A stretch of 32,000 nt of DNA from Geotalea daltonii FRC-32 (GCF_000022265.1 NC_011979.1:4140001-4172000); one strand, 5' to 3'. Counted from the stretch's first letter, positions 13,061-32,000 are shown. Notes: a model not told the origin generated them from the sequence alone. Numbers and translations are program-made.

Positions 13061-13135
13061 GTTTACACAGCAAAGGGCGCCTTTGAGGTAATTATGCTGT
13101 TAGCTCGTCACGTCTCATAAAATATTAAACCAATT

Positions 13136-13175
13136 AAAGAAAAGCCCTGAATGATTACAGGGCCTTCCTTTCTTG
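13136..13175. terminator. Candidate bidirectional terminator between convergent genes
   Basis: The hairpin GCCCTG-aatgatta-CAGGGC (13144-13163) is flanked by AAAGAAAA on the left and CTTCCTTTCTT on the right. It lies between the ABC gene (+) and the CARDB gene (-). The stem is short (6 bp). Confidence 0.5.
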
Positions 13176-13212
13176 TTGTCAAAACTATATTTTACTTTCG
13201 TTTGTGATCTAC

Positions 13213-16122: not shown

Positions 16123-16522
16123 TTTCCCTCCAATCAATATATGCACAATTCCAATCAACCCTGCATCAAAGGTCCTTTACCCTCCTTTCCTGCTCGGTTA
16201 AAAAAGCAAATGCAATGCTAGCTGCTTTTAATCATATATTACATATTAATGCAAGCTGTTTATCTACTTTCCCCTTTTCCTCCGGCCATTTTACTGGATA
16301 GACGTGAGATGAAAATTTAAGAGGTACCTCAATCAAACAAGTTATATCCCCCACAGGATAGGAGTCCACCTGCTCAAGATGAGGCCAAGATCATCCGTAA
16401 CAAATCTTGCCTTGACCTCATTCAGAGTAATTTAGTAATACTGCTGTGGTTACTCCTGAGCATCTATATCAAATTCCGTTTTCTCCATCTCTACGTATTG
16501 CAATAGTAAGAGGATTGCTATC

Positions 16523-18433
16523 ATGAAACATCTCATTCTCGGCACTGCAGGACACATCGACCATGGCAAGACCTCGCTGGTCAAGGCTTTGACCGGCATC
16601 GACACTGACCGGCTCAAGGAAGAAAAGGCGCGTGGCATTACCATCGAGTTGGGCTTTGCCCATCTGGAACTGCCGGAAGGGATACAGTTCGGCATCGTCG
16701 ACGTTCCCGGCCATGAAAAGTTCGTCAGGGCCATGGTGGCCGGAGTCGGCGGCATGGACCTGGTGATGCTGGTCATTGCCGCCGATGAGGGGATTATGCC
16801 CCAGACCAGGGAACACCTGGAAATTTGCCAGCTCCTGGGGGTGAAGAAGGGGCTGGTGGCCCTGACCAAGACTGATATGGTGGACAGCGAATGGCTTGGT
16901 CTGGTGACGGAAGAGGTGCGGGAATACCTGTCCGGCAGCTTCCTGGAAGATGCGCCCATAGTCCCGGTTTCCTCGCGCACCGGTGCAGGACTTGATGAGC
17001 TGAAGGGGGAGCTGGCACGGCTGGCACTGGAGGTGGAGGAGAAGCGGCACGATGGCCCCTTTCGCCTGCCGGTAGACCGGGTCTTCACCGTGACCGGCTT
17101 TGGAACGGTTGTCACCGGAACGCTCCTTTCCGGTGAGATCCAGGTTGGGGATGAGGTTGAATTGCTGCCGGCCAGTCGCGAATGCAGAGTCCGCGGCATC
17201 CAGGCCCATGGCGCAAAAACCGACCGTGGTCTGGCCGGGCAAAGGCTAGCCGTAAACTTGCAGGGGGTTGATCACGACCAGGTTTTGCGGGGCGATGTGG
17301 TGGTGCCCAAGAACCTGTACCGGCCGACCCGGGTCGTGGACGTACGCCTCAACTACCTGAGTTCGGCACCGAGGGAGCTGAAGCATCGTGCCACCCTGCG
17401 TCTCCATTCGGCCACCTATGAGGTGCCGGCACAGGTCATTCTTCTGGATCGGGACACGCTCAAGCCGGGAGATACCGCCTGTGCACAGCTGCGTCTTGCC
17501 AATCCGGTACTGCTTCTTCCCGGTGACCCATTCGTCCTGCGAACCTATTCACCCCAGGCTACCCTTGGGGGTGGCAGCATCCTCGATCCGGATCCACCTC
17601 GCCGTCGCCGGCGTTCCGAAGAGGCCATTGCACTCCTTGAGGCCATTGAAGCGGGCAACGAGGCGGATAAGGTCAGGATGATGGTCGCCGCCAGTCTCCT
17701 GTCAGGCCTCCCTCTCAATGAAATCATCAACCGTACCGGCATGTCGGTAAAAAGAATCGATGCAGCTCTGGCAATCCTTCTTACCTCTGGAGACGTGCTG
17801 CAGGTGGTACGCGAACCCAGGATTTTTCTCGGCAAAGCTGCCTTCGAAGGGCTGAAGGCGAAGTTGATGGAGGAACTGCAGACCTATCTCCGCGACAATC
17901 CCATGAAAGACGGCATCAACAAGGAAGAACTCAAGTCTCGCATACCCAGGCGCAGTGACCCCCGTTTTTTCGGCCCGATCCTGGCTGCCCTTGAGAAGGA
18001 AGGAAAGGCGGTCTCGGAGCGGGATATTATCAGGCTGCCGGGACGCAAGGGGGAGGCAAGCATCGATCAGGCCGGCATCCAGGAAAAGATTGCGGCTGCC
18101 CTGCAGAAGGGTGCAATGGAGCCTCCCACCATAAAAGAATTATGCAATGACTGCAAATGCTCAGAGAAACAGGTACTTGAGCTTCTAAATCTCCTGGTGC
18201 GAGATCACAAAGCGGTGAAGATCAAAGGTGATGTTTTTTACGCACCTGATCCCATTGTGACAATACGGGAAAAGCTGACTGCATATCTCAAGGAAAAGGG
18301 GGAAATCGCCCCGCCTGAGTTCAGGGAACTTACCGGCCTTTCTCGGAAATTCATGATCCCTCTTCTGGAGTATTTTGATCAGGAAAAGCTGACCATCCGT
18401 GTTGGAGATAAGCGTGTCCTGCGCAAAGGTTAG
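16523..18433 (+). CDS. selB: Selenocysteine-specific translation elongation factor SelB
   Basis: 636 aa. GTPase motifs [14 protein letters not shown] and TKTD sit in an EF-Tu-like N-terminal half. The long C-terminal extension is typical of the SECIS-binding winged-helix domains. AAGAGGA lies upstream of the ATG. Confidence 0.93.
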
Positions 18434-18458
18434 CAGCCAACCTATCGAATGCTTTAAT

Positions 18459-18493
18459 AGCAAAATAATAGAACCCTGTTCTTTTTATTGCTA
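18459..18493 (+). terminator. Weak candidate terminator after selB
   Basis: An imperfect hairpin with core AGAAC-cct-GTTCT is followed by TTTTT, 26 nt after the selB stop. The stem is short and A+T-rich. Confidence 0.35.
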
Positions 18494-18569
18494 TTTTCCC
18501 CTTGCGGGCTCCCAATGCTTCATCTAATATGCAATGAGTTTCATATTTAAGTTTGTCAAGGAAAACAAT

Positions 18570-20279
18570 ATGGCTAGAAATCTCAGGTTCGGCTCCAGCT
18601 TTATCCGTTTTTCACTATTTTGCGGTTTTGTCGCTTCTTTGTCCGGTATTTACATCAGCATGAAGATGGATCGGTCAGCTTCAGCTTCTCATATATATGC
18701 CATTCTTGCCGGCGTTGCTTTCTCCGTGAATGCCCTGGTTGCTCTGACTGTGTTCCTGATGCTGGCCGCCCGAAAAATGGTCAAAAGGGTACATATTATA
18801 GCCGATGCCATGAACCGTGGGGCAGACGGGGACCTGACCGCCAGGGTGCAGGTGGATTCAGGGGACGAGCTCGGAATTCTCGGCAGCAGCTTCAATGTCA
18901 TGCTGCAAAATCTGTCGGGGATGGCTGGAAGGGTTAAGATTACCATCCACGAACTGAGCAGGATGGCTGTGGACATCAAGGAAGTTTCCAGGCGTGGGGT
19001 CACCGTCGCCGAAGTTCAGTCCCAAGGGGTCAAAGGGACGACCATTGCCGTCCAGGAGATTAATCAATCCATAAATGACGTTGCCCAGGGAGTGGAAAGC
19101 CTTTCCAGATCCTCGGCGGAAAATGCGTCATCCATCCTGGAGATGTCGGCCAGCATCGAAGAGGTGGCAAAGCATGTCGAGGCCCTTTTTGAGGCAGTCG
19201 AAGAGGTAAGCAGTTCCATCATAGAAATGGCATCTGCTGAGAAGGAGATTGGTCGCAGCGTCAACAGCCTCATGTCCGATTCCACGACTACGGCCAAGCT
19301 GGTGACGGAAATGGGAGACTCCATCAAGCAGGTGGAGAGGAATGCCCTGAATACAGCAGCCATTTCCGAAGAGGTGCGAAACGATGCCGAATCGGGGCGT
19401 GCTTCGGTGGAGGCGACCATTTCCGGAATCGAAGAAATCCGCCGCGCTTCCCGGACCTCCTTTGAATCCATAGAGAATCTAGCAATGCGGGCGGGCAACA
19501 TCGGCAAAATTATCCAGGTGATAGACGAAATCGCCGAACAGACCAACCTGCTGGCTCTCAATGCTTCGATCATCGCTGCCCAGGCCGGCGAGCACGGCAA
19601 GGGATTTGCCGTCGTTGCCGGAGAGATAAAAGAACTTGCCCAGCGTACCGGCAATTCCACCAGGGAAATCACGGATATCATCAAAGGGGTCCAGGAAGAG
19701 ACCCAGCGGGCTGTAAAGGCATTCAACCTTGCTGAGCAGCGCATCGGTGAAGGTGAGAAGCTTTCCCAGCGTTCTGGGGAAATGCTGGAAAAAATCGTCT
19801 CCGGAGCCCAGATGGCTACGGAACAGGTAAACCAGATCGCCCGGACGACGGTGGAACAGTCCCAGGGGAGCCAAGAAATCAGCGGGGCAATGGACCGGGT
19901 TGCCGACATGGTCAAGCAGATTGCCAAGGCCACCAGGGAACAGGGCAAGGGGAGCGAGCTGATCATGTCTGCCGCAGAGCGCATGAAAACCCTGACCAGC
20001 CAGGTTAAATCATCCTCTCAGGAACAAAGCAGCTCAAGTAGCCTTATTGTCCGCTCGACTGAGGGTATCTCCTCTATGATAGAAAACATCAAAAAAGCAT
20101 GCGGAATGCAGGCGGAAAGCAGTTGTCGTATCGTTCAGGCAATTGAAGATATCGCCGAGTCCACGAAAACGACAGTGGATGCCACCAGAGTAATGGATGG
20201 CGTTGCTGCGGGTCTTTCCCAGCAGATAGGGGTCCTGAGCAAGGAAATGTCGATCTTTAAAATAGAATCGGGAAAATAA
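18570..20279 (+). CDS. Methyl-accepting chemotaxis protein: two TM helices, HAMP domain and an unusually long signalling domain
   Basis: It carries the conserved hairpin-tip region [38 protein letters not shown] and a HAMP-like segment ([30 protein letters not shown]). I prefer ATG 18570 (AAGGA about 7 nt upstream). The track's ATG 18534 has no RBS and overlaps a TAATAT -10-like box. Confidence 0.9.
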
Positions 20280-20293
20280 TTATAATCAATTCA

Positions 20294-20321
20294 TTGACAA
20301 ATACGAGCTTAGTGTTATAAA
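20294..20321 (+). promoter_or_regulatory. Sigma-70-type promoter candidate for the response-regulator gene
   Basis: TTGACA (20294-20299), a 16-nt spacer, then TATAAA (20316-20321), about 110 nt upstream of ATG 20434. This is a motif match only. Confidence 0.4.
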
Positions 20322-20433
20322 AGGTACTTCAGCTAATTATATCAGAAGGTTAGTAGATCGGCATGCCTGGGAGGTGCCCCCCACAAGGAACTATTCCGTA
20401 ATAAACTACTCGAATCTGGCAACGGAGGTTTTA

Positions 20434-20892
20434 ATGTACGAGCATCATGTTATGGTGGTTGAAGATAATCCTGATGATGAACTCCTTACCTTGAGGGCCC
20501 TCAAGAAATGCAATATCCGTAACGTGGTAGTGACCCGTGACGGAGCAGAAGCCCTTGATTATTTATTTTCAGCTGTCGATGCCGATGGCCTTTCCGTCAA
20601 GGTGAAACCAAGCTTCATTCTGCTTGACCTCAAGCTGCCCAAGATAGATGGTCTGCAATGCCTGCTGGCAATCAGAGCTGATGAAAGGACCAAGGACATC
20701 CCTGTTATTATTGTCACCTCTTCCAAAGATGATAAGGATGTTAACCGTTGCCGGACCCTCAGGGTTAAAGGCTACCTTAACAAGCCTCTGGATGCCAGAG
20801 AACTAGCCGAAACACTGCAGGAACTGGGGTTCCAGATAAACTTGCCCAGCAGCATCCCAGCTCCGGCTCCACGGCCATCATCCCTGATCTGA
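20434..20892 (+). CDS. Stand-alone CheY-like response-regulator receiver protein with Pro-rich C-terminal tail
   Basis: Receiver signature: VEDNPDDE acidic pocket, ILLDLKLPKIDG phospho-acceptor Asp, VTSS, and KP. ATG 20434 is preceded by GGAGG. The track's upstream start at 20374 lacks an RBS. Confidence 0.9.
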   Translation: MYEHHVMVVEDNPDDELLTLRALKKCNIRNVVVTRDGAEALDYLFSAVDADGLSVKVKPSFILLDLKLPKIDGLQCLLAIRADERTKDIPVIIVTSSKDDKDVNRCRTLRVKGYLNKPLDARELAETLQELGFQINLPSSIPAPAPRPSSLI

Positions 20893-20895
20893 CCG

Positions 20896-21390
20896 TCACC
20901 TGGGGGGGGCGGCGCAATCCCTGGTACTACCCTGGATTTTTTCCACAGCATGCGGTACCGCCGGCCAAACAGCTTCAATATTCTCCACAGCCCCTTTCGG
21001 GCTGCCGGGCAGATTGATGATCAGGCTCCTGCCCCGGATGCCGGCTATGGCTCGCGAAATCATGGCATGCGGCGTCTTTTCCAGGCTTCTTGCCCGCATT
21101 ACCTCACCAAAACCGGGTATGACACGGTCCAAAACAGCCATGGTTGCTTCGGGAGTCACATCCCGTGGCGAAACGCCTGTTCCTCCTGTGGTCAGAATCA
21201 GGTCAACCCCACCGCTGTCCGCCCATTCCTTCAATATGGACACAATTTCTTCATGCTCATCGGCAACAATGGCGCTTTTAACAATGGCTACCTCATGTGC
21301 CGCCAACCAGTTCTGCAGCGCCGGCCCACTGCCGTCTTCACGTTCTCCGCGGGCGCCCTTGTCGCTTAAAGTCAAAACTGCCGCCTTCAT
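20896..21390 (-). CDS. mogA: Molybdopterin adenylyltransferase / molybdenum cofactor biosynthesis protein (MogA/MoaB family)
   Basis: 164 aa with LSDKGARGEREDGSGPAL, LTTGGTGVSPRDVTPEAT, PGFGEVMR and INLPGSPKG, which closely parallel E. coli MogA motifs as I recall them. AGGAGG lies upstream of the ATG. Confidence 0.88.
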   Translation of the reverse strand: MKAAVLTLSDKGARGEREDGSGPALQNWLAAHEVAIVKSAIVADEHEEIVSILKEWADSGGVDLILTTGGTGVSPRDVTPEATMAVLDRVIPGFGEVMRARSLEKTPHAMISRAIAGIRGRSLIINLPGSPKGAVENIEAVWPAVPHAVEKIQGSTRDCAAPPR

Positions 21391-21579
21391 TCACGCCTCC
21401 TAAGCTGATTCTTTTATCTTCTTGTGATACCATAACACGCCCTGAAGGTAAGTCTCAAGCACCGTTTATGACGAAATGGAAGGGCTATTCAAATCGGTGA
21501 TGCGACAATAGCGACCGGGGAAATATGGTAAAATTATCAAGGGCAGAATCAGCTGTCGCCCTCTGAAAGGTATTCATCG

Positions 21580-22296
21580 ATGAATCTTTTAAGCATAAGC
21601 GAAACTCTGGCAGAAAAGCTTGACCGGCTGGAATTCTCCCGTCCGGTTGCCCATGTGTACAACCCGTTGCGTTATGCCTGGCGGCCACACCGGGAGTACC
21701 TGAACCGCTATGGAGGAACAGGGAAGAAAGCGGTGCTGGTCGGGATGAATCCCGGGCCGTGGGGCATGACCCAGACCGGTGTGCCGTTTGGCGAGGTGGC
21801 GGTGGTGCGGGACTGGCTGAGAATAGCCGATCCTGTAGAAAGGCCAGGTCTTGAACACCCCAAAAAGCCGGTCCAGGGTCTGAACTGCCCCCGCAGTGAG
21901 GTGAGCGGCAAGCGTCTATGGGGCATGATCCGTGAGCGCTTTGAGACACCTGCACAGTTTTTCAAGGATTACCTGGTCCTTAACTATTGTCCGCTGCTCT
22001 TTCTCGATGCCCAGGGGACCAACCTGACCCCGGACAAGCTTCCGAGTGTGGAACGTCATGCGCTTGAGGATGCCTGCAACGGGGCATTTCGTCATATGAT
22101 CGAATATCTCAAACCTGAATTTGTTGTAGGGGTTGGTAATTTTGCTGCAATTCAGGCAGAAACCGCTTTACAGGGGCTGCCGGTAAACGTAACCAAGATC
22201 CTCCACCCAAGCCCCTCCAGTCCGGCTGCGAACCGGGGATGGAGTGAGGTTGCACTACGGCAGCTGTCTGAAGCGGGGATTGGATTCCAGCCGTAG
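21580..22296 (+). CDS. SMUG1-family (family 3) uracil-DNA glycosylase
   Basis: It has the GMNPGPWGMTQTGVPF motif and the C-terminal HPSPSSPAANRGW motif characteristic of SMUG-type UDGs. 238 aa. Confidence 0.85.
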   Translation: MNLLSISETLAEKLDRLEFSRPVAHVYNPLRYAWRPHREYLNRYGGTGKKAVLVGMNPGPWGMTQTGVPFGEVAVVRDWLRIADPVERPGLEHPKKPVQGLNCPRSEVSGKRLWGMIRERFETPAQFFKDYLVLNYCPLLFLDAQGTNLTPDKLPSVERHALEDACNGAFRHMIEYLKPEFVVGVGNFAAIQAETALQGLPVNVTKILHPSPSSPAANRGWSEVALRQLSEAGIGFQP

Positions 22297-22329
22297 CTAC
22301 CTTGTTTATATGCCTGTCCAGAGGTGACC

Positions 22330-22944
22330 ATGATAATTGAGCTTCATTGTCACACGAAGGAACATTCCCCCTGCAGCAGGGTACCAGCCATGGAGCTTGC
22401 TGCCGCTGTCAGGCACAGGGGGAGCGACGGCCTGGTCATCACCGACCACCATTATATGTGGCCGACAGAGGAACTTGCAGAATTGAAAAGAGAAAACCGC
22501 TTGCCTGGCAACTTCATGATCCTGTCAGGCCAGGAGGTACTTACAGCCGATTTTGGTGACGTGCTCGTTTATGGAGCTGCCAGATCCATCCCCCATGGCA
22601 TGTCCCTTGCCGCACTGAGGAAAAATCATCCCCATGTGGCACTGGTCTGGGCCCATCCTTACCGTTACGGCCATCTTCCAACCGCTGTGGAGCTTATGAA
22701 TACAGATTTTGACGCCATAGAAATTGTCAATCCTCACCACAGCGAAGAGGAAAATTACCGAGCCGTTTCGGACTGGCAGCGGTGGAAATACCGGGCCAGC
22801 AGCGGTTCCGATATTCACAGAATCGACTTCAGCGAATTCTATCCGGTACAGTTTGACTGCCAGATAGGAAGGATCGAAGAGTTGGTAGCCTGCATAAAAG
22901 CAGGCCGAATTTCTCCCCGGATCGGCAAATACGCTGAACACTGA
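22330..22944 (+). CDS. PHP (polymerase/histidinol-phosphatase) domain metal-dependent phosphoesterase
   Basis: N-terminal IELHCHTKEHSPCS and VITDHH His-rich motifs. I prefer ATG 22330 (AGAGG upstream) over GTG 22324. It lies 34 nt downstream of the UDG gene on the same strand. Confidence 0.8.
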   Translation: MIIELHCHTKEHSPCSRVPAMELAAAVRHRGSDGLVITDHHYMWPTEELAELKRENRLPGNFMILSGQEVLTADFGDVLVYGAARSIPHGMSLAALRKNHPHVALVWAHPYRYGHLPTAVELMNTDFDAIEIVNPHHSEEENYRAVSDWQRWKYRASSGSDIHRIDFSEFYPVQFDCQIGRIEELVACIKAGRISPRIGKYAEH

Positions 22945-23000
22945 TAAAGAAGTTTCCTTCTGCTCGTAGAAAATTTTGTCGAATCAGAAAAAAATCCCCC

Positions 23001-23042
23001 TATGAAAAAAGAAGGGCCAGGGTATTGTCATATGCCCTGGCC
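23001..23042 (-). terminator. Rho-independent terminator for the 116-aa orphan gene
   Basis: The stem is GGCCAGGG/CCCTGGCC (23015-23042) with an 11-12-nt loop. On the minus strand it is followed by CTTCTTTTTTCA. It lies 27 nt downstream of the stop at 23069. Confidence 0.6.
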
Positions 23043-23068
23043 ACAGTGTCTTTCCCTGGAATTGCCAA

Positions 23069-23419
23069 TCATGAGTCGACCGGGTTGCCCCGTGTTTCGG
23101 CATCCAGTATGGTCAGCAGGTTTTCCGGGGTGAAACTGCAGACATCCTCTTTGCCCTTGTGAGCCCATTTGATCCGGTCGCCCCCGGTATCGTGCACCAG
23201 ATTAACCCGCGTGCCACCGACCTTTTTCACCACCGACCACATGTCCTCCATGCTCAACAAGTCAAGGCCGCCGATTTCCTCGGTGCCTGAGCTCTCGGCT
23301 TCGAAGCGTTCAATCAGGTCGTAGTCGAGGAAATCCTCCTCTTTGCGCCACCACCTTACAAACCGATCTTTTTCGGTACGCCGTTCCTTCACTGCTTTTA
23401 CAGCTTCCAGTCCTGTCAT
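23069..23419 (-). CDS. Hypothetical acidic protein (116 aa), no family recognised
   Basis: It has a strong RBS (AAGGAGGTG) upstream of ATG 23419 and its own terminator. Its non-repetitive, charged composition looks like real coding sequence. I recognise no motif. Confidence 0.65.
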   Translation of the reverse strand: MTGLEAVKAVKERRTEKDRFVRWWRKEEDFLDYDLIERFEAESSGTEEIGGLDLLSMEDMWSVVKKVGGTRVNLVHDTGGDRIKWAHKGKEDVCSFTPENLLTILDAETRGNPVDS

Positions 23420-23638
23420 GGCACACCTCCTTGCCCATTGTCATCATTTCCGGGGATTTTCATCCCCACCTGAATTAATTATACTCCCGTCTCGGCCAAG
23501 GGATATCCTTTAATTGCGATTTCTGCAGCTTGAATTTGGACAGGACATGGTGGCGAAGAAAGGACGGAAATATCCTGAGATTTCAATTGAATTCATTAAT
23601 CTGATGTTGTAGCCTAATCAGATGCTGCGAACGCCAGT

Positions 23639-23668
23639 TAACGGGGCAAAAGCAAATCTGCCCCGTTA
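23639..23668. other. Perfect 10-bp-stem hairpin / palindrome in the 338-bp divergent intergenic region
   Basis: The sequence is TAACGGGGCA-aaagcaaatc-TGCCCCGTTA. There is no flanking U-tract on either strand, so it does not look like a classical terminator. It lies about 90 nt upstream of the SPFH gene start. Confidence 0.4.
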
Positions 23669-23757
23669 CAGTCAGCAGATCTAGTTCCAGCAGTCGCTGG
23701 TTCCCGGCAGTATCGAGAACTAAGCCATTGCCTATTACCAAGTATCAGGGGGAAACC

Positions 23758-24861
23758 ATGACATTGTGGGAAAAAGCCAAAGCAGAATTCATCGACATCA
23801 TTGAGTGGATTGACGATTCGAGCGACACCATGGTCTGGCGGTTCCCTCGCTATGAGAACGAGATCAAGTATGGGGCTCAGCTGGTGGTCAGGCAGGCCCA
23901 GGCGGCGGTCTTCGTCGACAGGGGAGAGATTGCCGATGTATTTACGCCTGGACAGTACCGGCTGGAAACGCAAAACCTACCCGTGCTGAGCACCCTGAGG
24001 GGCTGGAAATACGGCTTCCAAAGCCCGTTCAAGGCCGAAGTTTATTTCGTCAACGTCAGAAGCTTTACCAACCTGAAATGGGGCACCAAAAACCCGGTCA
24101 TGCTCCGGGACCCTGAATTCGGCCCGGTACGCCTCAGGGCCTACGGCACCTACGTGGTTCGGGCCAGCGATCCGGCAAAATTCATCAGGGAGATTGTCGG
24201 CACCAGCGGGCATTTCACCCTCAACGATGTATCGGACCAGCTGCGAAACCTTATCGTGACAAGATTCTCGGACATGCTTGGCGAGCACCGCATACCCGTT
24301 CTTGATCTGGCCGCCAGATACAATGAACTCTCACTTTATCTCACGGAAAAGGTTGCTCCCGAATTCAATGAATACGGGCTGGAAGTGACCAAGCTCCTGG
24401 TGGAGAACATTTCCCTGCCGCCAGAGGTTGAGGAGGCGCTGGATAAAAAGAGCAGCATGGGCATCATCGGCAACCTGGACGACTTTACCCGCTTCCAGAC
24501 CGCCAACGCCATGGAGGCCGCGGCACAAAACCCGGGGGGCGATGCCTCGGCAGGCATAGGTATGGGCATGGGCTTTGCCATGGCCAACCAGATGGGAAAA
24601 GCGGTCGCCGCTCCCCAGGCAGCGGCGCAGACTGTCCCGCCCCCCCTTCCTGAAGCAGAGAGCTGCAAGTACTACGTAGGAAAAAATGGTAAGCAGGCCG
24701 GGCCATTCGATGGGGATGCCATCATCGCCTACATAAGAAAGGGCTCCATCACCAGGGAAACCCTGATGTGGAAAGAGGGGATGGACAAGTGGCAACCAGC
24801 TGAATTATTTCCCGAGTTTGCCGGCGAAATGAAAGCAACCCCGCCACCTCTGTTCGAATAA
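23758..24861 (+). CDS. SPFH/band-7 (COG4260-type) protein with C-terminal GYF_2 (DUF4339) domain
   Basis: The N-terminus WEKAKAEFIDIIEW..D....MVWRFP and the body are typical of the virion-core-like SPFH subgroup. A low-complexity Ala/Gly/Met/Pro linker follows. The C-terminal YYVGKNGKQAGPFDGDAII.YI..G.I...TLMWKEGMDKWQPA matches the GYF_2 pattern. ATG 23758 follows GGGGGA. Confidence 0.88.
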   Translation: MTLWEKAKAEFIDIIEWIDDSSDTMVWRFPRYENEIKYGAQLVVRQAQAAVFVDRGEIADVFTPGQYRLETQNLPVLSTLRGWKYGFQSPFKAEVYFVNVRSFTNLKWGTKNPVMLRDPEFGPVRLRAYGTYVVRASDPAKFIREIVGTSGHFTLNDVSDQLRNLIVTRFSDMLGEHRIPVLDLAARYNELSLYLTEKVAPEFNEYGLEVTKLLVENISLPPEVEEALDKKSSMGIIGNLDDFTRFQTANAMEAAAQNPGGDASAGIGMGMGFAMANQMGKAVAAPQAAAQTVPPPLPEAESCKYYVGKNGKQAGPFDGDAIIAYIRKGSITRETLMWKEGMDKWQPAELFPEFAGEMKATPPPLFE

Positions 24862-24875
24862 GGGAGAAACACAGC

Positions 24876-25571
24876 ATGGCCAACTGTTCCAACTGCTCTG
24901 CACCACTGCTGTCAGGTTCGATCAAATGCGAATACTGCGGTAGCCGCAACGATATCGATCTCAAAGGCATCAATTACTACACGACCAACGAGCCCGATTC
25001 GGAACGGATCTGTCCGCGATGCAACATAAGGCTCAAGACCATTGACCTGAAGGTCGAAGGGAAATTCCTCGTCGAAAGATGTGATGAGTGCCTGGGGCTG
25101 TTCTTTGATCCGGGGGAACTGGAAGCGCTTCTCCAGGCAACGGTGACCAATGTCTTTGCCATCGACCGAAGCAGGCTGAATGCCATCAATGCAACCAGAA
25201 GAGCCGAAAACTACGCCATCACCTACCTCAAGTGCCCCATCTGCAGCACAATGATGAACCGGGTCAACTTCGGCGCCAAGAGCGGAGTCGTCGTCGATAT
25301 CTGCAAAGACCACGGCGTCTGGCTCGACGGCGGGGAGCTGCGGCATCTGGCCGAATGGATGAAGGCCGGCGGCAAACTGCTCGACCAGGAGCGTCAGGAA
25401 GAGCGGAAAAGGCAAGAGGCTGAAGCCCAGCTGGAACTGCTGAAGCAACGTTCCAAATCGTCGACCGGCGGAGAATTCAGCGAGTATGGCGGCTTCAGAA
25501 ACTATGATGGCAATGATACTGATGATCTTTTCGAGCTGCTGAAAAAAGCTGTTATCTTCTTTACCAGGTAG
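24876..25571 (+). CDS. Zinc-ribbon protein with N-terminal CxxC ribbon plus two zf-TFIIB-type domains
   Basis: CSNCSAPL...CEYCGS is followed by CPRCN...ERCDECLGLFFDPGELE and CPICS...DICKDHGVWLDGGELRHL. These have the CPxC...C..C.G.W.D.GEL pattern of PF13453-type domains. The C-terminus is a charged coiled coil. The gene starts 14 nt after the SPFH gene. Confidence 0.85.
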   Translation: MANCSNCSAPLLSGSIKCEYCGSRNDIDLKGINYYTTNEPDSERICPRCNIRLKTIDLKVEGKFLVERCDECLGLFFDPGELEALLQATVTNVFAIDRSRLNAINATRRAENYAITYLKCPICSTMMNRVNFGAKSGVVVDICKDHGVWLDGGELRHLAEWMKAGGKLLDQERQEERKRQEAEAQLELLKQRSKSSTGGEFSEYGGFRNYDGNDTDDLFELLKKAVIFFTR

Positions 25572-25837: not shown

Positions 25838-28800
25838 TCAATATTTACCCCCTGGTGTGTAACTACCCATACTGTTGCTGCAGGGGCTGCCTCCGCCTGA
25901 CGTCGTGCACGTCGCACTTCCCGATGTCAATTCGTTAACTGCCGTCAATGGCCGGTGATTTGTCAGGGAAAGCGGCGTTACCGTGTTTCTTATGAATGCA
26001 TACGGTCTGCTGGTCTCGGTTGTACCTCGGGGCCACTTGGAATCAGTTCCCGTGCCGGCCAGCCTATTGAAGCCGTGAACGTTCTCGCCACGTGTCGGAC
26101 GACTGGCGGTAATGCTGCTGGAGTGGCAATAGTTGCACCCATAACGCAGATAGGTGACCATGCTGCTGTGCGTACTTGATGCAAGTGCAGAACCGGTGCC
26201 GTGATGTTGAGAGGTGCTCGTGTTATATCCGGCATGGCAGATTTTACAGAGTGTCGTTTCGTTGGTGCTGGCCGCAGGGGTCCCTGTGACTGTTGCCGTG
26301 CCTCGAAGGGTGGCTTGTGCGCCGTGGGCCGTTACGGTACTGGTCTGAACCCCGGATGCACCAACAGGTGCATGGCAATCCCAGCAGGAAATCAGTGGCC
26401 CCCAGCTCGTTATGTCAACGCTACTACCCCTGGTCGCACCGTTCCATGGATTGACCATTCTGGTGGTTTTGGCATACCAGTTATTCTGTTTGCCCATAAC
26501 AGGGTGATAGGATGAGTTGCTTGTGGCAAACGCCGCTGCAATATTGGTGACACCGCCGGTTACCCCGTTAGCGGTTATCCCGGCCCCTGTATATCCTGCT
26601 TCCGCAATGGTAGTGGCAAAGGGCTTTTCTGCAGTCCCACCGGGTACCTGTGCTGTGGTACTTACGGCACCGTTCCCATCATGGCACTTGAGGCAGAAGT
26701 TGATCTGAATAGCGGCCACATCAGCCTCGACGTTCGGGCTACCCAGATCCCGACTGAATCGGGGCGGTTTTGCATCAACAGTGGTGCTCGTATAGGAACC
26801 GGGAGTCCCGCTGAAGGTTACACCTTTGATGGTAGAACCGGTATCCGGATCGCGAAGCTCTATCAGTCCGTTTTGGTGATATGAAGTAGGTTTCCCTGTG
26901 GACATCTCCCCTTCCATGTGGCAGACGATACAGTCGTACTGGGTGACTGCACCACCTGCGGAGCGCTTGTGAGACCAGGTGTTGTTGAATTCAAGGGAAA
27001 CTGCCCTTCGTGAACCATTATTGGCCAGAGGACCCTGTTTTATATCCACAGTTTTACTATGACAAGAGACACAGCTCGGTCCTTCGATGCTGCCGTTCAG
27101 GTGCAGTTGGAAATTCAATATGGTCCCGGTCGCAGAAACGTTGTTGTGACAGCCGCTGCAGGAGGTTGTTGGCACCTGACCACGATGGGCCGACGAAGAT
27201 ATGCCGTAAAGCGGAGGATTGCCGTGGCAGACACCGCAATTGCTTCCCGATCTGGCTGCGGTCCAGGTTACGGTTGCCGTACGCGCTGCTCCGCCACGGC
27301 CGTCCTGGTGGCACTGGTTGGTGGAGCAGGTGCCCCCCGATGAGTAGGGATAGCCCTTGCTGTCTGTTGTATTGGTAGAACCAAAGGTATAGTTGACAAC
27401 AGCAAGGATATCGGCCTTGCCGTCCTCCTCATTATGCAGGTTTGCAGGATGGCAGTTTTTGCAGGCAAAGCCGTAGGCAGTGGCAGTTGTTTTATTGCTG
27501 CCGGTCAGGTTATTAAAGACGGTCCCCTGGTTGTAATGCAGAGCATGTCCTGCCGTTGTACTCACAGAAAGCTGGCCGTTATTGCTGCCGCCATGGCAAC
27601 CATCGCAAATCTTGGGCTCTCCTTTATAGGCAAAGCCGTTATAGGTTGTATCGGAGCTATGGAGATGACACTGGGTGCATACCGTGCCTGAGTTATGGCT
27701 GTCTGAGCTGGTGGCAGTATAGTGTACCATCTTGTTGGGATCTGCATTTTTATAGGTATGGCAAACGTTACAGATACCATTGAAAGGAGCCGCCGTCTTA
27801 GCCCAGTTTGAGGCAGCAGCCTTTGCTACAAAGGAAACATTATTAGTGGTAAAGCTGGACGGCACTCCAGTTGTTCCATCAGAGGTCATTGACGGCTTCA
27901 GGTGTACCATGGCAATGGGTCCTGCATTGGTGCTGGTCCGGTCTCCGTGTGAGTCATGGCAATCCCAGCAGAACTGGCCGCCATTGAGTGATGTGGAATG
28001 CTTGCTGCCGAAGTGATATTTATCCACCTTGCGCTGAGTCGCTGTCTTGGCGGTATATCCGGGCCCTGGCGTTACCCCGGTTGCGCCGACGGAGGCATGA
28101 CAGACAAGACAGACACCATTCCTGCCCCAAGTTGCATGATCGAAATTGCGCAAACGCATCGGATTATTGGTGTCCCCATGGCTGACACTGCTGTATTCAT
28201 GGCAGTACAGACATGGATCGCCTGCCCCACCAGCCGTGGCTGCAGCCGAGGAGAATCCGGCAAAGGCCGCTCCGGTAACGTCATAGGAGCCGGATTGCCT
28301 GCCGTGGCCCGACCAGCTCCATTCAGCCCGGGCAATCTTTGCCATGGTGCTGTTTTTGAAAGCGTAATTGACGGTATCGGCAGTGGCAAAGTGACAATCA
28401 CCGCACTTGTTGGTGCCGCCCCAGGTGAATACCGTTGAAGCATTGCCGCCATGGCAATTGACATTACTACAGCTGGTTTTGGTCGTCGGAGGGTTTGCAG
28501 ACGTGGGGGTAAAGGTATTTGGCAAGCCGATAAATGTTTTCGTGCCGTTGGCAACGACATTGTAATTCTTGTTTACATGGTTTCTCACGCTGGAAATGGT
28601 ATTGCCGCCACTGCCAACCGTGCCGTTGTGGCACCAGTCGCAGGTAAAGCCCCAGAAGACCGCATGCTTGGGATGGCTGTTGGCCTTGCCCTTGTAACCG
28701 TTCTGGTAATCAGGCCCTGTCGGATAGGCCGTATGACAGCTGCCGCAATGAACGTTCGCCTGTACCGTATCCCATTTGATCCAGGGAGTTGAGTAATCGG

Positions 28801-31800
28801 TGAAAGAAAAGGCCCGACTGTGGCAGTAACCGTTTTTACACTGATTATTTCCGGCATCCCAACGGAAAGCTGCAGAGCCGACCGTACTGCTGGCGGAAAT
28901 ATTGCGAAAACCATTGGGATGCTTGGCACGACTGCCGGAAAGAAGCGCAGTATTGCTGGTTGTCGTAGACGCATGACAGGCGGCACAGGTTACCAGGGTG
29001 TTGTTTGTGGAGGTATTGTTGCTGCCGATGGTCCCACCATTGCCATAGGTGTTGGCATGCTTGTTGTGGGGTTTTGACCAGGTGGTGTGCTGAGAGTTCG
29101 GATCATCGGCTGCCTTGTTATGGCAATCCCCACAGGCGGCGGCTCTGCCGGTCCAGCGCAGCACACTGGTCATTGGGGACTGGATCAGATCCAGAGTATT
29201 CGCATAGTTACGTTTGCCCAGGCCGCCGCGTCCGTCCGAGTGGCAGTAGGTGTCGCAGGAAGTGCCGGTTGAATACCCATATCCGCGTCCGTCATAGATC
29301 AAGCCTGTGCCGCGGTAGACCACCTCCGGCCTGCCTGCCCCTGAAGGAATATTGTTGAACGGTGGGCGCATGATGACTTCAGCAACAGAACCATTTGTCA
29401 CGCCGGCAGGAGGCCCATTGAGATGGCTTTCGGTCGGACTGCCGGGATGGCAGACGCCACACATGAAGACGTTGGTGCTGCTGGAAAGATTGACATTGGT
29501 CCATCCTTGTTCGGTTGTACTGGACGGGCGGGTAGAGCGGTTGTAATGCTTACGGTGGGCGGGTGAAAGTGTGGCTGTCGATGTAGTGGTGTTATTGGCC
29601 TCATGGCAGTTGCCGCAGGTGTTAATCGTAGAGGTGTCCCAGTCCCGACTTTGGGTGGTGGAATTGTTGCCGTGGCAGTAAGTATTGGAGCAGACGTGGG
29701 TAGAAGCAAAGCTGCCCGAGAAATTGGCCATCTTGATGAAGTTAATGTCAATCGCACGGTTGATGTGCTTGACGTCGGTGCCGTTGAAGACAGACCGGCC
29801 ATTGGCAGCGACTGTATTCACGTGGCACCAGTTGCAGGTAACCGGCTTGTGTGGCAAGGGCCCGGCACTTATGTGGTTCAGGTGCCGCCCCGAGCTCATC
29901 TGTCTTTGAACGCCAGCCAGGCCGTTGTGACAGTAATTGCACTCGATGGTCCCCTGCTGACCGGCAGCGATGTTGTTCCAGGTCGTAGGAGGCGCCTTGT
30001 AGACACCTGCCCCGTTGGAGTGACAGTAGATCTGGGTACAGCCGTTGGCGGCATAGGCCAACCCGCCGGTCGATTTAGGCCCCCATGCCACGTTGTTCAC
30101 CCTGTTTGCGTGAAGCGAAAAAGCGGTGACATTATCAAAGGCATTTACCGTCGAGGCATGGCACTCGTTGCACTTGAAGTTGAAACCGCTAAAACTGCTG
30201 CTGGTATTGTTCACATGTGCAGTATGACCTTTGGTGGCAATCGGATCGGCTGAGGCTGCATTGTAACCATGACAACCGGCGCACCCCCCCGACAGCGAGC
30301 CTCCCCAGGTAACCGGTTTATTGAAATGGCAGTAGACATTGGTGCACTGTTGGGCACTACTGTCCCAGCGAATTGCCCCGGCGATGCTGTTGCCGGTAAC
30401 GTTGCGGAAGCCATTGGGATGCCTGTCGCGTCTGTTGGCAATAAGAGTAGTATTGTCGGCTGCGGTCGCTGCATGGCAGGCGTTACAGGTGGCATTGGCA
30501 CTGCGGGAGCCGGAAAGGTGCTTAGAGTGGGAACCGGACCAGGTGGGGTTGGCATCACCATACTGGTTGTGACAGTTGCCGCAGACGACCCCGGTTGAGG
30601 TTGTCCACTCCAGTCTTGGCGCCGATGTGCTGTTGCGTTTCCCCGGGTTGCCACGCCCATCGGAGTGGCAGTAGGTATCACAGGTGGTCCCGGTGGAATA
30701 ACCATAGCCGCGGCCATCGTAATTTACGCCGGTGCCACGCGTCACTGTCTCCGGTCTCGTTGCCCCCACAGGAGGTGTAAACGGCAGGCGCAAGGCGACC
30801 TCGGCCACCGAGCCATTGGTAACGCCTGCCGGCGGCCCGCTCAGATGGCTGGTGGTCGGGCTGCCAGGGTGACATACCCCGCACATGAAGACGTTGGTTG
30901 AAACTGAGCGATTTACATTGGCCCAGCCATCCTCCGTGGTATTTGCCGGCCGGCTGCTCGTATTGTAATGCTTGCGGTGGGCCGCTGAAAGGGTGGCTGA
31001 GGTCGTGGTCGTGTTGTTGGCCTCATGGCAGTTACCGCAGGTATTGAGGGTTACCGTATCCCAGTCGCGGGTGGAGGTGGTGGCATTGTTGGTATGGCAG
31101 TAAGTGTTGGAACAGACATGAGTGGAAGTACTGTAGCTACCGGAGAAGTTTGCCATTTTTATGAACGACACATCGATGGTGCGGTTGATGTGCTTGACAT
31201 CTGTACCGTTGTATACCGATTGACCGTTAGATGCCACCGTATTCGAGTGGCACCAATTACATGAGACGGGTCGATGCGGCAGGGGGCCGCCATTGATATG
31301 GTTCAGGTGCCGCCCGGAGCTCATCTGATTCTGGATTCCTGCCAAACCGTTATGGCAGTAATTGCACTCGATTACCCCCTGCTGGTTGTCACCGATGGTC
31401 TTCCATGTCTGGGGAGGGGCTTTATACCTTCCCTTGCCGTTGGAATGGCAGTACACCGTACATGTCTTGGCAGGGTCGTAGGAAAGGACACTGGTCCCCC
31501 CGGTTGGCACATACGCGGCATCGGGGCCCCAGTTCACATCGGCTGCGCCATTGACATGAAGGGAAGTAGAAATCAGCCCGGTGTCGGAGGAATTCACCGT
31601 CGAATTATGACATTCCTGACAACGGAAATTGAACCCGCCAAAACGGACACTGGTGTTGTCGACGTGGGCTTTGTGACCATTGCTGGTAATGGTTGAAACC
31701 GCATCCGCATTGTTACCATGGCAATTTACACAGCCGGTTGAGTAACTGCTGTCACCCCAAGTCGGGTTCTGTCGAGGTGGTTTTCCTTTTCCGTCGCTGT

Positions 31801-32000
31801 GACAGTAAAGATTGGAACATTCTCCATAGGCCGCGCTTGGCGCCATATCACCAGTGGAACCTGCAGCTGCCGGAGTCAAGGAACCGGCCGCCTGGTACCC
31901 GGCTGATGATCCTACCAGAGGGTCCGTCGTTTTCATTGCCCAGCGCACATTCCCCTGGACATGGGAAACATCAATAGCCGGATGACAGAGATCACAGGAG
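25838..32000 (-). CDS. Giant multihaem c-type cytochrome (more than 2050 aa, N-terminus outside the window), at least 46 haem-attachment motifs
   Basis: The 2036-aa track ORF holds 34 CXXCH plus 11 CX3CH/CX4CH motifs by my manual count. The listed GTG at 31948 is not the start. The frame stays open to nt 32000 and encodes a further CDLCH (SCDLCHPAIDVSHVQGN-VRWAMK). The stop is at 25838. The composition is extremely Thr/Ser/Asn/Gly-rich with many HxxH pairs. Confidence 0.95.
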   Translation of the reverse strand, partial: SCDLCHPAIDVSHVQGNVRWAMKTTDPLVGSSAGYQAAGSLTPAAAGSTGDMAPSAAYGECSNLYCHSDGKGKPPRQNPTWGDSSYSTGCVNCHGNNADAVSTITSNGHKAHVDNTSVRFGGFNFRCQECHNSTVNSSDTGLISTSLHVNGAADVNWGPDAAYVPTGGTSVLSYDPAKTCTVYCHSNGKGRYKAPPQTWKTIGDNQQGVIECNYCHNGLAGIQNQMSSGRHLNHINGGPLPHRPVSCNWCHSNTVASNGQSVYNGTDVKHINRTIDVSFIKMANFSGSYSTSTHVCSNTYCHTNNATTSTRDWDTVTLNTCGNCHEANNTTTTSATLSAAHRKHYNTSSRPANTTEDGWANVNRSVSTNVFMCGVCHPGSPTTSHLSGPPAGVTNGSVAEVALRLPFTPPVGATRPETVTRGTGVNYDGRGYGYSTGTTCDTYCHSDGRGNPGKRNSTSAPRLEWTTSTGVVCGNCHNQYGDANPTWSGSHSKHLSGSRSANATCNACHAATAADNTTLIANRRDRHPNGFRNVTGNSIAGAIRWDSSAQQCTNVYCHFNKPVTWGGSLSGGCAGCHGYNAASADPIATKGHTAHVNNTSSSFSGFNFKCNECHASTVNAFDNVTAFSLHANRVNNVAWGPKSTGGLAYAANGCTQIYCHSNGAGVYKAPPTTWNNIAAGQQGTIECNYCHNGLAGVQRQMSSGRHLNHISAGPLPHKPVTCNWCHVNTVAANGRSVFNGTDVKHINRAIDINFIKMANFSGSFASTHVCSNTYCHGNNSTTQSRDWDTSTINTCGNCHEANNTTTSTATLSPAHRKHYNRSTRPSSTTEQGWTNVNLSSSTNVFMCGVCHPGSPTESHLNGPPAGVTNGSVAEVIMRPPFNNIPSGAGRPEVVYRGTGLIYDGRGYGYSTGTSCDTYCHSDGRGGLGKRNYANTLDLIQSPMTSVLRWTGRAAACGDCHNKAADDPNSQHTTWSKPHNKHANTYGNGGTIGSNNTSTNNTLVTCAACHASTTTSNTALLSGSRAKHPNGFRNISASSTVGSAAFRWDAGNNQCKNGYCHSRAFSFTDYSTPWIKWDTVQANVHCGSCHTAYPTGPDYQNGYKGKANSHPKHAVFWGFTCDWCHNGTVGSGGNTISSVRNHVNKNYNVVANGTKTFIGLPNTFTPTSANPPTTKTSCSNVNCHGGNASTVFTWGGTNKCGDCHFATADTVNYAFKNSTMAKIARAEWSWSGHGRQSGSYDVTGAAFAGFSSAAATAGGAGDPCLYCHEYSSVSHGDTNNPMRLRNFDHATWGRNGVCLVCHASVGATGVTPGPGYTAKTATQRKVDKYHFGSKHSTSLNGGQFCWDCHDSHGDRTSTNAGPIAMVHLKPSMTSDGTTGVPSSFTTNNVSFVAKAAASNWAKTAAPFNGICNVCHTYKNADPNKMVHYTATSSDSHNSGTVCTQCHLHSSDTTYNGFAYKGEPKICDGCHGGSNNGQLSVSTTAGHALHYNQGTVFNNLTGSNKTTATAYGFACKNCHPANLHNEEDGKADILAVVNYTFGSTNTTDSKGYPYSSGGTCSTNQCHQDGRGGAARTATVTWTAARSGSNCGVCHGNPPLYGISSSAHRGQVPTTSCSGCHNNVSATGTILNFQLHLNGSIEGPSCVSCHSKTVDIKQGPLANNGSRRAVSLEFNNTWSHKRSAGGAVTQYDCIVCHMEGEMSTGKPTSYHQNGLIELRDPDTGSTIKGVTFSGTPGSYTSTTVDAKPPRFSRDLGSPNVEADVAAIQINFCLKCHDGNGAVSTTAQVPGGTAEKPFATTIAEAGYTGAGITANGVTGGVTNIAAAFATSNSSYHPVMGKQNNWYAKTTRMVNPWNGATRGSSVDITSWGPLISCWDCHAPVGASGVQTSTVTAHGAQATLRGTATVTGTPAASTNETTLCKICHAGYNTSTSQHHGTGSALASSTHSSMVTYLRYGCNYCHSSSITASRPTRGENVHGFNRLAGTGTDSKWPRGTTETSRPYAFIRNTVTPLSLTNHRPLTAVNELTSGSATCTTSGGGSPCSNSMGSYTPGGKY
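28841..31819 (-). repeat. Diverged tandem duplication of a ~475-500-aa, 12-haem module inside the cytochrome gene
   Basis: Module A (aa 44-534 of the track ORF; 30347-31819) and module B (aa 535-1036; 28841-30346) carry the same ordered 12 motifs. Module A has CSNLYCH, CVNCH, CQECH, CTVYCH, CNYCH, CNWCH, CSNTYCH, CGNCH, CGVCH, CDTYCH, CGNCH, CNACH. Module B has CTNVYCH, CAGCH, CNECH, CTQIYCH, CNYCH, CNWCH, CSNTYCH, CGNCH, CGVCH, CDTYCH, CGDCH, CAACH. The CNYCH Cys codons at 31364-31366 and 29939-29941 are 1425 nt apart. Confidence 0.85.

What the first reader, a model, noticed from the sequence alone, without database searches (positions are those of the whole stretch)
28841..31819. Hierarchical repeat architecture in the cytochrome: haem triads, 12-haem modules, and a duplicated module
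In the N-terminal ~1100 residues the motifs follow a strict order of one CX3-4CH followed by two CXXCH. The triads start at aa 44, 163, 279, 423, 535, 637, 753, 898, 1037 and about 1110, so they are spaced about 100-145 aa apart. Four triads form a 12-haem module, and that module occurs twice in tandem. The period is 1425 nt at the CNYCH landmark, and the copies are clearly diverged at the DNA level. The design resembles dodecahaem proteins built from four trihaem c7-type domains in Geobacter sulfurreducens, as I recall them. Here, however, each triad is considerably larger and begins with a non-canonical site. This suggests growth of a haem wire by module duplication.
Basis: partly seen in the sequence, partly recalled or inferred. 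Interest (0 to 1): 0.65.

Follow-up and report, generated by a model that had tools for sequence, protein, structure and literature searches.

The report
Duplicated 12-haem cassette in giant cytochrome
The repeat pattern is real: a 53-haem secreted cytochrome of Geotalea daltonii is built from three-haem units, and a four-unit (12-haem) cassette in it was duplicated long ago, which is an ordinary way for this already catalogued family of predicted "electron wire" proteins to grow.

Summary
On the minus strand, 28841-31819 encodes two tandem copies of a 12-haem cassette. Each cassette has four triads of CX3-4CH, CXXCH, CXXCH. The copies are 60-66% identical in protein (BLASTP E=0), 66% in DNA, and spaced 1425 nt apart.

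Two corrections:
- The ORF is open at the window edge.
- The tenth triad starts at reader aa 1160, not about 1110.

The triad is the known CxxxxCH/CxxCH domain (TIGR01904/PF09698). Each unit also carries three invariant extra histidines (HxxH plus H) and one Trp.

The duplication is old, because synonymous sites between the copies are saturated. Both copies are under purifying selection (omega 0.17 and 0.03 against G. toluenoxydans). Homologues carry 1, 2 or 3 cassettes. A bootstrapped NJ tree points to repeated gains, or to early homogenisation.

Homology to c7/GSU1996 could not be shown. Pfam c7 scores per unit are below threshold, no PDB match appeared, and the AlphaFold models are low-confidence.

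The gene is third in an operon of three giant paralogues (132 haem motifs in all).

Verdict: correct and well supported, but a new member of a known kind. Interest is modest.

The parts
25838..32000 (-). Partial CDS: the C-terminal 2053 codons plus the stop codon of the 2427-aa 53-haem c-type cytochrome of Geotalea daltonii FRC-32. The frame is open to the window edge. The window part holds 45 CXnCH motifs from the GTG at 31948, plus CDLCH upstream of it.
   Evidence: 100% match to P0001 over the whole query. Full sequence.
31982..31996 (-). CDLCH, the third haem motif of the upstream triad T0. The rest of T0 lies beyond the window.
30347..31819 (-). Cassette (module) A: 12 haem motifs in four triads (full-length aa 435-925, reader aa 44-534).
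28841..30346 (-). Cassette (module) B: the tandem duplicate of A (full-length aa 926-1427, reader aa 535-1036).
31463..31819 (-). Triad A1: CSNLYCH, CVNCH, HkaH, CQECH, H.
   Evidence: 50% identical to B1.
31115..31462 (-). Triad A2: CTVYCH (CX3CH), CNYCH, HlnH, CNWCH, H.
   Evidence: 77% identical to B2.
30683..31114 (-). Triad A3: CSNTYCH, CGNCH, HrkH, CGVCH, H, followed by a Gly/Tyr-rich insert of about 50 aa.
   Evidence: 78% identical to B3.
30347..30682 (-). Triad A4: CDTYCH (CX3CH), CGNCH, HskH, CNACH, H. This is the internal-junction type.
   Evidence: 41% identical to B4. A4-type and B4-type follow position in homologues.
30041..30346 (-). Triad B1: CTNVYCH, CAGCH, HtaH, CNECH, H.
29693..30040 (-). 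Triad B2: CTQIYCH, CNYCH, HlnH, CNWCH, H.
29258..29692 (-). Triad B3: CSNTYCH, CGNCH, HrkH, CGVCH, H.
28841..29257 (-). Triad B4: CDTYCH, CGDCH, HnkH, CAACH, H. This is the terminal type, which precedes C1.
28472..28840 (-). Triad C1, not duplicated and conserved in all members of the subgroup: CKNGYCH, CGSCH, HpkH, CDWCH, H.
28214..28471 (-). C2: CSNVNCH and CGDCH only. With the last motif of C1 it forms the best Pfam c7-like stretch.
27146..27328 (-). Isolated further 4-2-2 triad: CSTNQCH, CGVCH, CSGCH.
25841..28213 (-). C-terminal region with 23 more haem motifs. It includes the Pfam MtrC/MtrF domain II/IV-like stretch (about 26675-27175). It is mosaic and exchanged between close relatives.

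Best explanation
The region is the middle of a secreted giant multihaem c-type cytochrome of the CxxxxCH/CxxCH-domain family. The polypeptide is a chain of trihaem units of about 100-150 aa. Each unit supplies three covalent haem-attachment motifs (one CX3-4CH, two CXXCH). Each also has three further invariant histidines (an HxxH pair and a single H) and one invariant Trp. The repeated part most likely carries about 36 bis-His low-spin haems packed in series, as a single-chain electron conduit or store.

Four diverged units form a cassette of about 490 aa and 12 haems. That cassette was duplicated in tandem a long time ago, and both copies are kept by purifying selection. Cassette number (1, 2 or 3) varies among homologues through repeated gain, and possibly loss. 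This would change the number of haems in 12-haem steps, and hence the presumed length or capacity of the conduit.

Shown: the anatomy, the homology of the copies, their age, the selection on them, the copy-number variation and the family membership. Inferred: haem occupancy, bis-His ligation, linear wire geometry, extracellular location and the electron-transfer role.
For: - Identity of the gene: 100% match to 'cytochrome c, 53 heme-binding sites [Geotalea daltonii FRC-32]', 2427 aa.
- Family: TIGR01904 scores 252.8 bits (cut-off 27) in 10 stretches. PF09698 scores 103.9 bits (cut-off 21.7) in 9 stretches.
- Duplication: A against B gives E=0 and 60% identity. Per-triad identities are 50/77/78/41%. 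DNA repeats are spaced 1425 nt.
- Unit signature: H, H, CxxCH, H, Cx4CH, W and CxxCH are invariant or nearly so in 32 units of the three G. daltonii paralogues and in 104 family units. In 120 family proteins, 1220 of 1311 CX3-4CH sites flanked by CXXCH have the HxxH.
- Age: pS between A and B is 0.63-0.83 everywhere, which is saturated. pN is 0.15 in triads 2-3 and 0.30 in triads 1 and 4.
- Recent constraint: against G. toluenoxydans, cassette A has dS 0.079 and omega 0.17; cassette B has dS 0.104 and omega 0.03.
- Copy number: 1, 2 or 3 cassettes in homologues.
- Tree: m1 and m2 clades have 100% support within groups, and P0004 m2+m3 has 100%.
- Not an assembly artefact: the same protein is found in the NCBI genome and two independent Logan assemblies. 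G. toluenoxydans is colinear.
- Secretion: the only hydrophobic stretch is the N-terminal signal sequence, and N+T+S+G make up 42% of residues.
- Context: three tandem giant paralogues with 44+35+53 haem motifs, and five such genes in tandem in Geobacter sp. DSM 9736.
- Literature: long single-chain 'nanowire' multihaem cytochromes are predicted to be extracellular in Desulfuromonadia (PMC11492766). Cytochromes with 30-53 haems were predicted extracellular or of unknown location, never periplasmic (PMC7399161).
Against: - No structure is available. AlphaFold2 gave pLDDT 52 for the cassette and 62 for one unit, and Foldseek found nothing. Haem-haem geometry and linearity are therefore unverified.
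- No expression, haem-content or localisation data for this protein turned up in the searchable literature.
- The tree is distance-based. It cannot separate independent duplications from early gene conversion.
- The single-cassette proteins nest inside two-cassette clades with only moderate support (55-86%). The direction of change (gain or loss) is not settled for them.
Confidence: 0.8

Rival explanations
1. The units are true c7-type trihaem domains. The protein would then be an enlarged homologue of the Geobacter sulfurreducens c7 polymers (GSU1996 type), with a 12-haem cassette equivalent to GSU1996 itself.
For: The order of ligands and motifs in the re-phased unit (HxxH, CXXCH, H, CXnCH, CXXCH) is the order in c7 as I recall it. 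The whole-protein PF14522 score is 102.6 bits.
Against: Single units score 16-25 bits against a cut-off of 24.8. Unit profiles of 32 and 104 sequences find no c7, PpcA or GSU1996 chain in the PDB; the best hit is cytochrome c554 at E about 3e-4. hhalign against PpcA gives 3% probability over 20 columns. Units are 98-157 aa rather than about 70-80, and one motif is CX3-4CH. Multihaem HMMs cross-match any CXXCH-rich sequence.
Confidence: 0.25
2. The repeated region is mainly a conserved conductive stalk or spacer. Specificity would lie in the exchangeable C-terminal head, and cassette number would adjust reach rather than add function of its own.
For: Against G. toluenoxydans the gene is 96-100% identical in DNA through the triad array (down to window position about 28410). 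Identity then falls to 73-87%, and to about 50% below about 27057. dS is 1.04 in the tail against about 0.09 in the cassettes. Homologues share the array but have different tails. The last ~400 aa (20% of the query) are 55% identical to Anaeromyxobacter oryzae P0024.
Against: This reading is compatible with the main explanation rather than exclusive of it. No functional assignment exists for the C-terminal part beyond a Pfam MtrC/MtrF domain II/IV match.
Confidence: 0.3
3. The haems serve as an electron store (a capacitor) rather than a directional wire. Duplication would then raise capacity.
For: Electron storage is one of the two rationales proposed for very haem-rich cytochromes (PMC11492766, section 5). 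The operon encodes 132 haem motifs.
Against: Nothing in the sequence separates storage from transport. The elongated repeat design and the extracellular predictions for such proteins favour transport (PMC11492766, PMC7399161).
Confidence: 0.15
4. The apparent duplication is an assembly artefact, a very recent duplication, or a product of ongoing gene conversion.
For: Tandem repeats are prone to misassembly. The two cassettes of P0005 are 80% identical, and they group together in 26% of bootstraps.
Against: The copies are only 66% identical in DNA, with saturated synonymous sites and no long identical tract. The same arrangement is seen in a complete genome, two other assemblies, G. toluenoxydans, two MAGs and Geobacter sp. 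OR-1. P0001 m1+m2 are never sisters (0 of 100).
Confidence: 0.02

Closest known systems
CxxxxCH/CxxCH domain c-type cytochromes (NCBIfam TIGR01904, Pfam PF09698 'Geobacter CxxxxCH...CXXCH motif')
   Same: The repeat unit is this domain. The protein passes both curated cut-offs many times over. All 252 homologues at E<=1e-10 are of this family, the listed ones by their Pfam content.
   Different: The family models describe only the paired CX4CH...CXXCH motif. Three things seen here are not part of the family description as returned by the tools: the full trihaem unit with its HxxH, H and W signature; the four-unit cassette; and its copy-number variation.
GSU1996-type dodecahaem and c7-domain polymers of Geobacter sulfurreducens (described in PMC11492766 as arising by duplication and concatenation of c7 modules)
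   Same: Twelve haems arranged as four trihaem units in one chain. Growth is by duplication of trihaem modules. The presumed role is as a wire or store.
   Different: No detectable sequence or profile match. Units are about 41 aa per haem, compared with about 25 in c7 (from memory). One motif per unit is CX3-4CH. All three distal ligands appear to be His. Here the 12-haem block is itself a repeat unit inside a 53-haem protein.
Predicted single-chain 'nanowire' multihaem cytochromes of Desulfuromonadia (27-haem G. metallireducens cluster, GSU2884/OmcA, OmcH, OmcG; PMC11492766)
   Same: Very long, haem-dense, secreted polypeptides with little secondary structure. They are predicted to be extracellular and are not encoded next to porin-cytochrome genes.
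   Different: Whether those proteins are homologous to this one was not tested here. None has a solved structure.
Polymerising cytochrome filaments OmcS, OmcE and OmcZ
   Same: Long-range electron transfer along stacked haems, outside the cell.
   Different: Those proteins reach length by polymerising 4-8-haem subunits. This one would do it by repeating units within one chain. No PDB sequence match was found.

Membership tests
CxxxxCH/CxxCH domain cytochromes (TIGR01904 / PF09698) | Score above the curated HMM cut-off | tested here: met
   TIGR01904 scores 252.8 bits against 27. PF09698 scores 103.9 bits against 21.7. All ten single units match PF09698 (18.0-42.5 bits, E 1e-10 to 5e-3); eight of them clear the 21.7-bit cut-off.
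CxxxxCH/CxxCH domain cytochromes (TIGR01904 / PF09698) | Repeated pairs of a CX4CH motif followed by a CXXCH motif within one protein | tested here: met
   11 such pairs lie in the window part and 12 in the full protein.
c7-type trihaem domain polymers (GSU1996 type) | Each domain recognisably homologous to cytochrome c7 (Pfam PF14522 per domain, or a match to solved c7 chains) | tested here: inconclusive
   The profile aligns end to end on 8 of 10 re-phased units, but at 16-25 bits against a cut-off of 24.8. There are no c7 or GSU1996 hits in PDB profile searches. hhalign gives 3%.
c7-type trihaem domain polymers (GSU1996 type) | Three CXXCH motifs in a compact domain of about 70-80 residues | tested here: not met
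   Units are 98-157 aa and contain one CX3-4CH.
c7-type trihaem domain polymers (GSU1996 type) | c7/c3 fold with its characteristic haem core | tested here: inconclusive
   AlphaFold2 models reach pLDDT 52 and 62. Foldseek against the PDB gives no match with E below 3. The models lack haems.
MtrC/OmcA decahaem outer-surface cytochromes | Family HMM (TIGR03507) above its cut-off | tested here: not met
   14.6 bits against 209.3. Only the generic domain model PF22113 matches (94.2 bits), with its best stretch in the C-terminal part outside the finding.
Filament-forming cytochromes (OmcS/OmcE/OmcZ) | Sequence similarity to the solved filament subunits | tested here: not met
   phmmer of the whole protein against the PDB returns only three hits, all marginal (E 0.03-0.14), to c3 and NrfB.

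The most novel reading that the evidence does not exclude
The 12-haem cassette is a length-setting element, a molecular ruler. Lineages of Geobacteraceae would repeatedly add or drop whole cassettes (1, 2 or 3 copies, with at least two independent gains). This would tune in 12-haem steps how far a single-chain haem wire reaches from the cell. The trihaem CxxxxCH/CxxCH unit may also be a fold of its own rather than a c7/c3 derivative.
Probability: 0.25. Interest if true: 0.55.

Novelty: new member of a known kind. Interest (0 to 1): 0.3.

Why it matters
If the haems do form a continuous chain, this family shows a second way to build long biological conductors: repeating units within one polypeptide instead of polymerising small subunits. 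The natural one-, two- and three-cassette versions then offer a ready-made series for testing how conduction length, haem number and fitness relate. As it stands, the finding documents the internal anatomy of an already annotated protein from a known domain family. Module duplication in multihaem cytochromes is an established idea. The result is useful for annotation and for choosing constructs for structural work, but it is not surprising.

Tried and rejected
- AlphaFold2 of cassette B with a 41-row alignment gave pLDDT 52 and pTM 0.44. Foldseek against the PDB found 0 hits.
- AlphaFold2 of one unit (the A4-B1 junction) with a 104-row alignment gave pLDDT 62 and pTM 0.49. Foldseek found nothing with E below 3. 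The fold question stays open.
- PDB sequence search with the whole protein, and profile searches with two unit alignments, returned only marginal generic multihaem hits.
- Tandem Repeats Finder does not see the duplication.
- The idea that the high identity of triads 2-3 reflects recent gene conversion was rejected. Synonymous sites there are as saturated as elsewhere.
- The draft genome of G. toluenoxydans could not be used for protein-level comparison, because single-base deletions break the frame. DNA-level and codon-level comparison worked.
- Literature searches for the domain names, for G. daltonii cytochromes and for '53 heme' found no description of this protein's repeat architecture. 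The '53 heme-binding motifs' mentioned in PMC11492766 cites other organisms.
- The whole-library search with cassette B found only 348 representatives at E<=1e-3. It does not give clean copy numbers, because any four consecutive units match weakly.


Full report
**What is at the coordinates.** The only long ORF over 28841-31819 is on the minus strand (25838-31948 as listed, 2036 aa). A scan for CXnCH motifs finds 45 sites. From reader aa 44 to 1107 they follow one CX3-4CH then two CXXCH, nine times without exception. The triads start at 44, 163, 279, 423, 535, 637, 753, 898 and 1037. The next CX4CH is at 1160, not about 1110, and only one CXXCH follows it before the pattern changes. CNYCH occurs at window 31366 and 29941, which is 1425 nt apart. 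The described pattern is therefore present.

**The ORF is cut by the window.** Upstream of the GTG at 31948 the frame stays open to base 31999 and contains another CDLCH. A search with the open frame gives a 100% match over its full length to a 2427-aa protein. NCBI names it 'cytochrome c, 53 heme-binding sites [Geotalea daltonii FRC-32]' (sequence). The missing N-terminus holds a Sec-type signal sequence, which is the only hydrophobic stretch in the protein. It also holds five CXXCH motifs and most of one more triad, T0. The repeats are thus in the middle of the protein, not at its N-terminus.

**The duplication.**
- Reader aa 44-534 against 535-1036 gives BLASTP 563 bits, E=0, 60% identity.
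- Position by position, the triads are 50%, 77%, 78% and 41% identical between copies. Triads at different positions are 22-47% identical, most with E between 1e-3 and 1e-10.
- At DNA level there are five direct-repeat blocks, 72-78% identical, spaced 1425, 1422 or 1500 nt. Overall nucleotide identity is 66%.
- High similarity stops at the cassette borders. The flanks (T0 tail against A4 tail, B1 head against C1 head) share only the generic motif residues.

**The unit.** The triad is the known CxxxxCH/CxxCH domain. TIGR01904 scores 252.8 bits (cut-off 27) and PF09698 scores 103.9 bits (cut-off 21.7). I aligned 32 units from the three G. daltonii paralogues and 104 non-redundant units from 120 family proteins. 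Both alignments show a fuller signature:

HxxH, 10-25 residues, CxxCH, about 15, H, a variable loop, Cx3-4CH, 7-14, W, about 10, CxxCH.

Each set of three haem motifs thus comes with exactly three further invariant histidines. I read this as bis-His ligation of all three haems, which is an inference. In the 120 proteins, 1220 of 1311 CX3-4CH sites flanked by CXXCH have the HxxH.

**Age and selection.**
- Between A and B, the proportion of synonymous differences is 0.63-0.83 in every triad. That is saturated.
- Non-synonymous differences are 0.15 in triads 2-3 and 0.30 in triads 1 and 4.
- The higher identity of the middle triads therefore reflects stronger constraint, not recent conversion.
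- A usable estimate of constraint comes from the close relative G. toluenoxydans JCM 15764. Its locus is colinear with this one. Cassette A has dS 0.079, dN 0.013 and omega 0.17. Cassette B has dS 0.104, dN 0.003 and omega 0.03. Both copies are maintained.

**Copy number in relatives.** The motif strings of the 25 best homologues share one plan: 22222, T0, then n cassettes of 422-422-422-322, then C1, C2 and a variable tail.

| Cassettes (n) | Homologues |
|---|---|
| 1 | P0008 (Geobacter sp. DSM 9736), P0012, P0013, P0019 |
| 2 | P0001 and most others, including two Geobacter MAGs and Geobacter sp. OR-1 |
| 3 | P0004 |

These counts rest on classifying every triad against the G. daltonii triads and on an HMM of the cassette. 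The fourth triad comes in an internal type (A4) and a terminal type (B4), and the type follows position in every homologue.

In a bootstrapped NJ tree of 41 cassettes:
- First and second cassettes form separate clades with 100% support within each of two protein groups. The duplication therefore predates those proteins.
- P0001 m1 and m2 are never sisters.
- P0004 m2 and m3 are sisters in 100% of replicates, which marks a later extra duplication.
- The two groups separate as wholes in 100% of replicates. This is incompatible with a single ancestral duplication without homogenisation. It means either at least two independent duplications or early concerted evolution.

In 1.84 billion representative proteins, only 348 match the cassette at E<=1e-3 and 73 at E<=1e-30. 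The family is small.

- In favour: if the unit is phased to start at HxxH, its order of ligands and motifs is that of c7.
- Against: those unit scores are 16-25 bits, at or below the 24.8-bit cut-off.
- Against: unit profiles find no c7, PpcA or GSU1996 chain in the PDB. The best hit is c554 at E about 3e-4.
- Against: hhalign against PpcA gives 3%.
- Against: units are 98-157 aa long, about 41 aa per haem.
- Uninformative: AlphaFold2 gave pLDDT 52 for the cassette and 62 for a unit, with no Foldseek match.

The fold is therefore undetermined. 'Begins with a non-canonical site' is a choice of phase, not a property of the unit.

**Context.** The gene is the last of three tightly packed, co-oriented genes for giant cytochromes of the same family. 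They are 1785, 1462 and 2427 aa long and carry 44, 35 and 53 haem motifs. The first two lie outside the window. Those two have their own super-repeats of period two units, meaning 6 haems, present three to four times. In Geobacter sp. DSM 9736, the one-cassette orthologue lies in an array of five such genes. Downstream genes in the window are convergent and unrelated. No porin-like gene was seen in the DNA examined.

**How it most likely works.** It is probably a secreted, probably extracellular, single-chain haem conduit or store. Serial trihaem units hold bis-His haems close enough for electron hopping. Cassette duplication would change the haem count in 12-haem steps.
- Published surveys predict extended wire-like models and extracellular location for such very haem-rich Desulfuromonadia proteins. 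They also discuss modular growth of multihaem cytochromes (PMC11492766). Cytochromes with 30-53 haems were never predicted to be periplasmic (PMC7399161).
- The wire region is nearly identical between G. daltonii and G. toluenoxydans, while the C-terminal third has been exchanged. This suggests a conserved stalk with a variable head.
- These functional steps are inferred. None is shown.

**Novelty.** The protein is annotated, the domain family is curated, and growth of multihaem cytochromes by module duplication is established. The four-unit cassette, its 1-3 copy variation and the full unit signature were not found in the literature I could search. This is a correct and well-supported observation of modest interest: a new member of a known kind.

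Noticed in passing
window 31949-32000 and beyond (L001:10001-11122): The cytochrome ORF runs off the window. The GTG at 31948 is not the start codon. The true N-terminus (374 residues beyond the window end, 391 upstream of that GTG) has a signal sequence, five CXXCH motifs and most of one more triad.
   Followed up: yes
L001:257-5614 and L001:5601-9989 (upstream of the window): Two more giant CxxxxCH/CxxCH cytochromes (1785 aa with 44 motifs, 1462 aa with 35 motifs) precede the gene in the same orientation, with a 14-nt overlap and an 11-nt gap. Their units alternate between two types, which gives a 6-haem super-repeat present three to four times.
   Followed up: partly
window about 25841-28410: Mosaic C-terminus. 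DNA identity to Geotalea toluenoxydans is 96-100% down to about 28410, 73-87% down to about 27060, and about 50% below that. dS is 1.04 in aa 1551-2020 against about 0.09 in the cassettes. The last ~400 residues (20% of the query) are 55% identical to Anaeromyxobacter oryzae P0024. This suggests exchange of the C-terminal 'head' by recombination.
   Followed up: partly
L003:7261-12193: The G. toluenoxydans JCM 15764 draft has single-base deletions at positions equivalent to full-length aa 923, 941, 1227, 1593 and 1721. They split the gene into many ORFs. Whether these are sequencing errors or a pseudogene is not resolved.
   Followed up: partly
window 31445-31462 (CTVYCH) against 30020-30040 (CTQIYCH): The second triad has a CX3CH site in cassette A but CX4CH in cassette B. 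In P0004, P0007, P0009-11 and P0014, the CX3CH version sits in the second (and third) cassette instead. Orthology of cassettes across groups is therefore not simple.
   Followed up: no
L021:1-18736: In Geobacter sp. DSM 9736, the one-cassette orthologue lies in an array of five tandem CxxxxCH/CxxCH cytochrome genes (over 2000, 1268, 1438, 1925 and 942 aa). The four complete genes carry 29, 35, 41 and 23 motifs.
   Followed up: partly
window 30683-30880 and 29258-29458: The third triad of each cassette carries a conserved insert of about 50 residues, rich in Gly and Tyr (…GVTNGSVAEV…YDGRGYGYSTG…). The low-confidence model places short beta strands there. Its role is unknown.
   Followed up: no
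window 9450-25571: Other genes in the window, from Pfam: two ABC exporter genes (9450-13060); a CARDB-repeat protein (13213-16158, minus strand); selenocysteine elongation factor SelB (16523-18433); a methyl-accepting chemotaxis protein (18534-20279); a response regulator; a UDG-family protein; an SPFH/GYF protein (23728-24861); and a zinc-ribbon protein (24876-25571). None is evidently linked to the cytochrome.
   Followed up: partly
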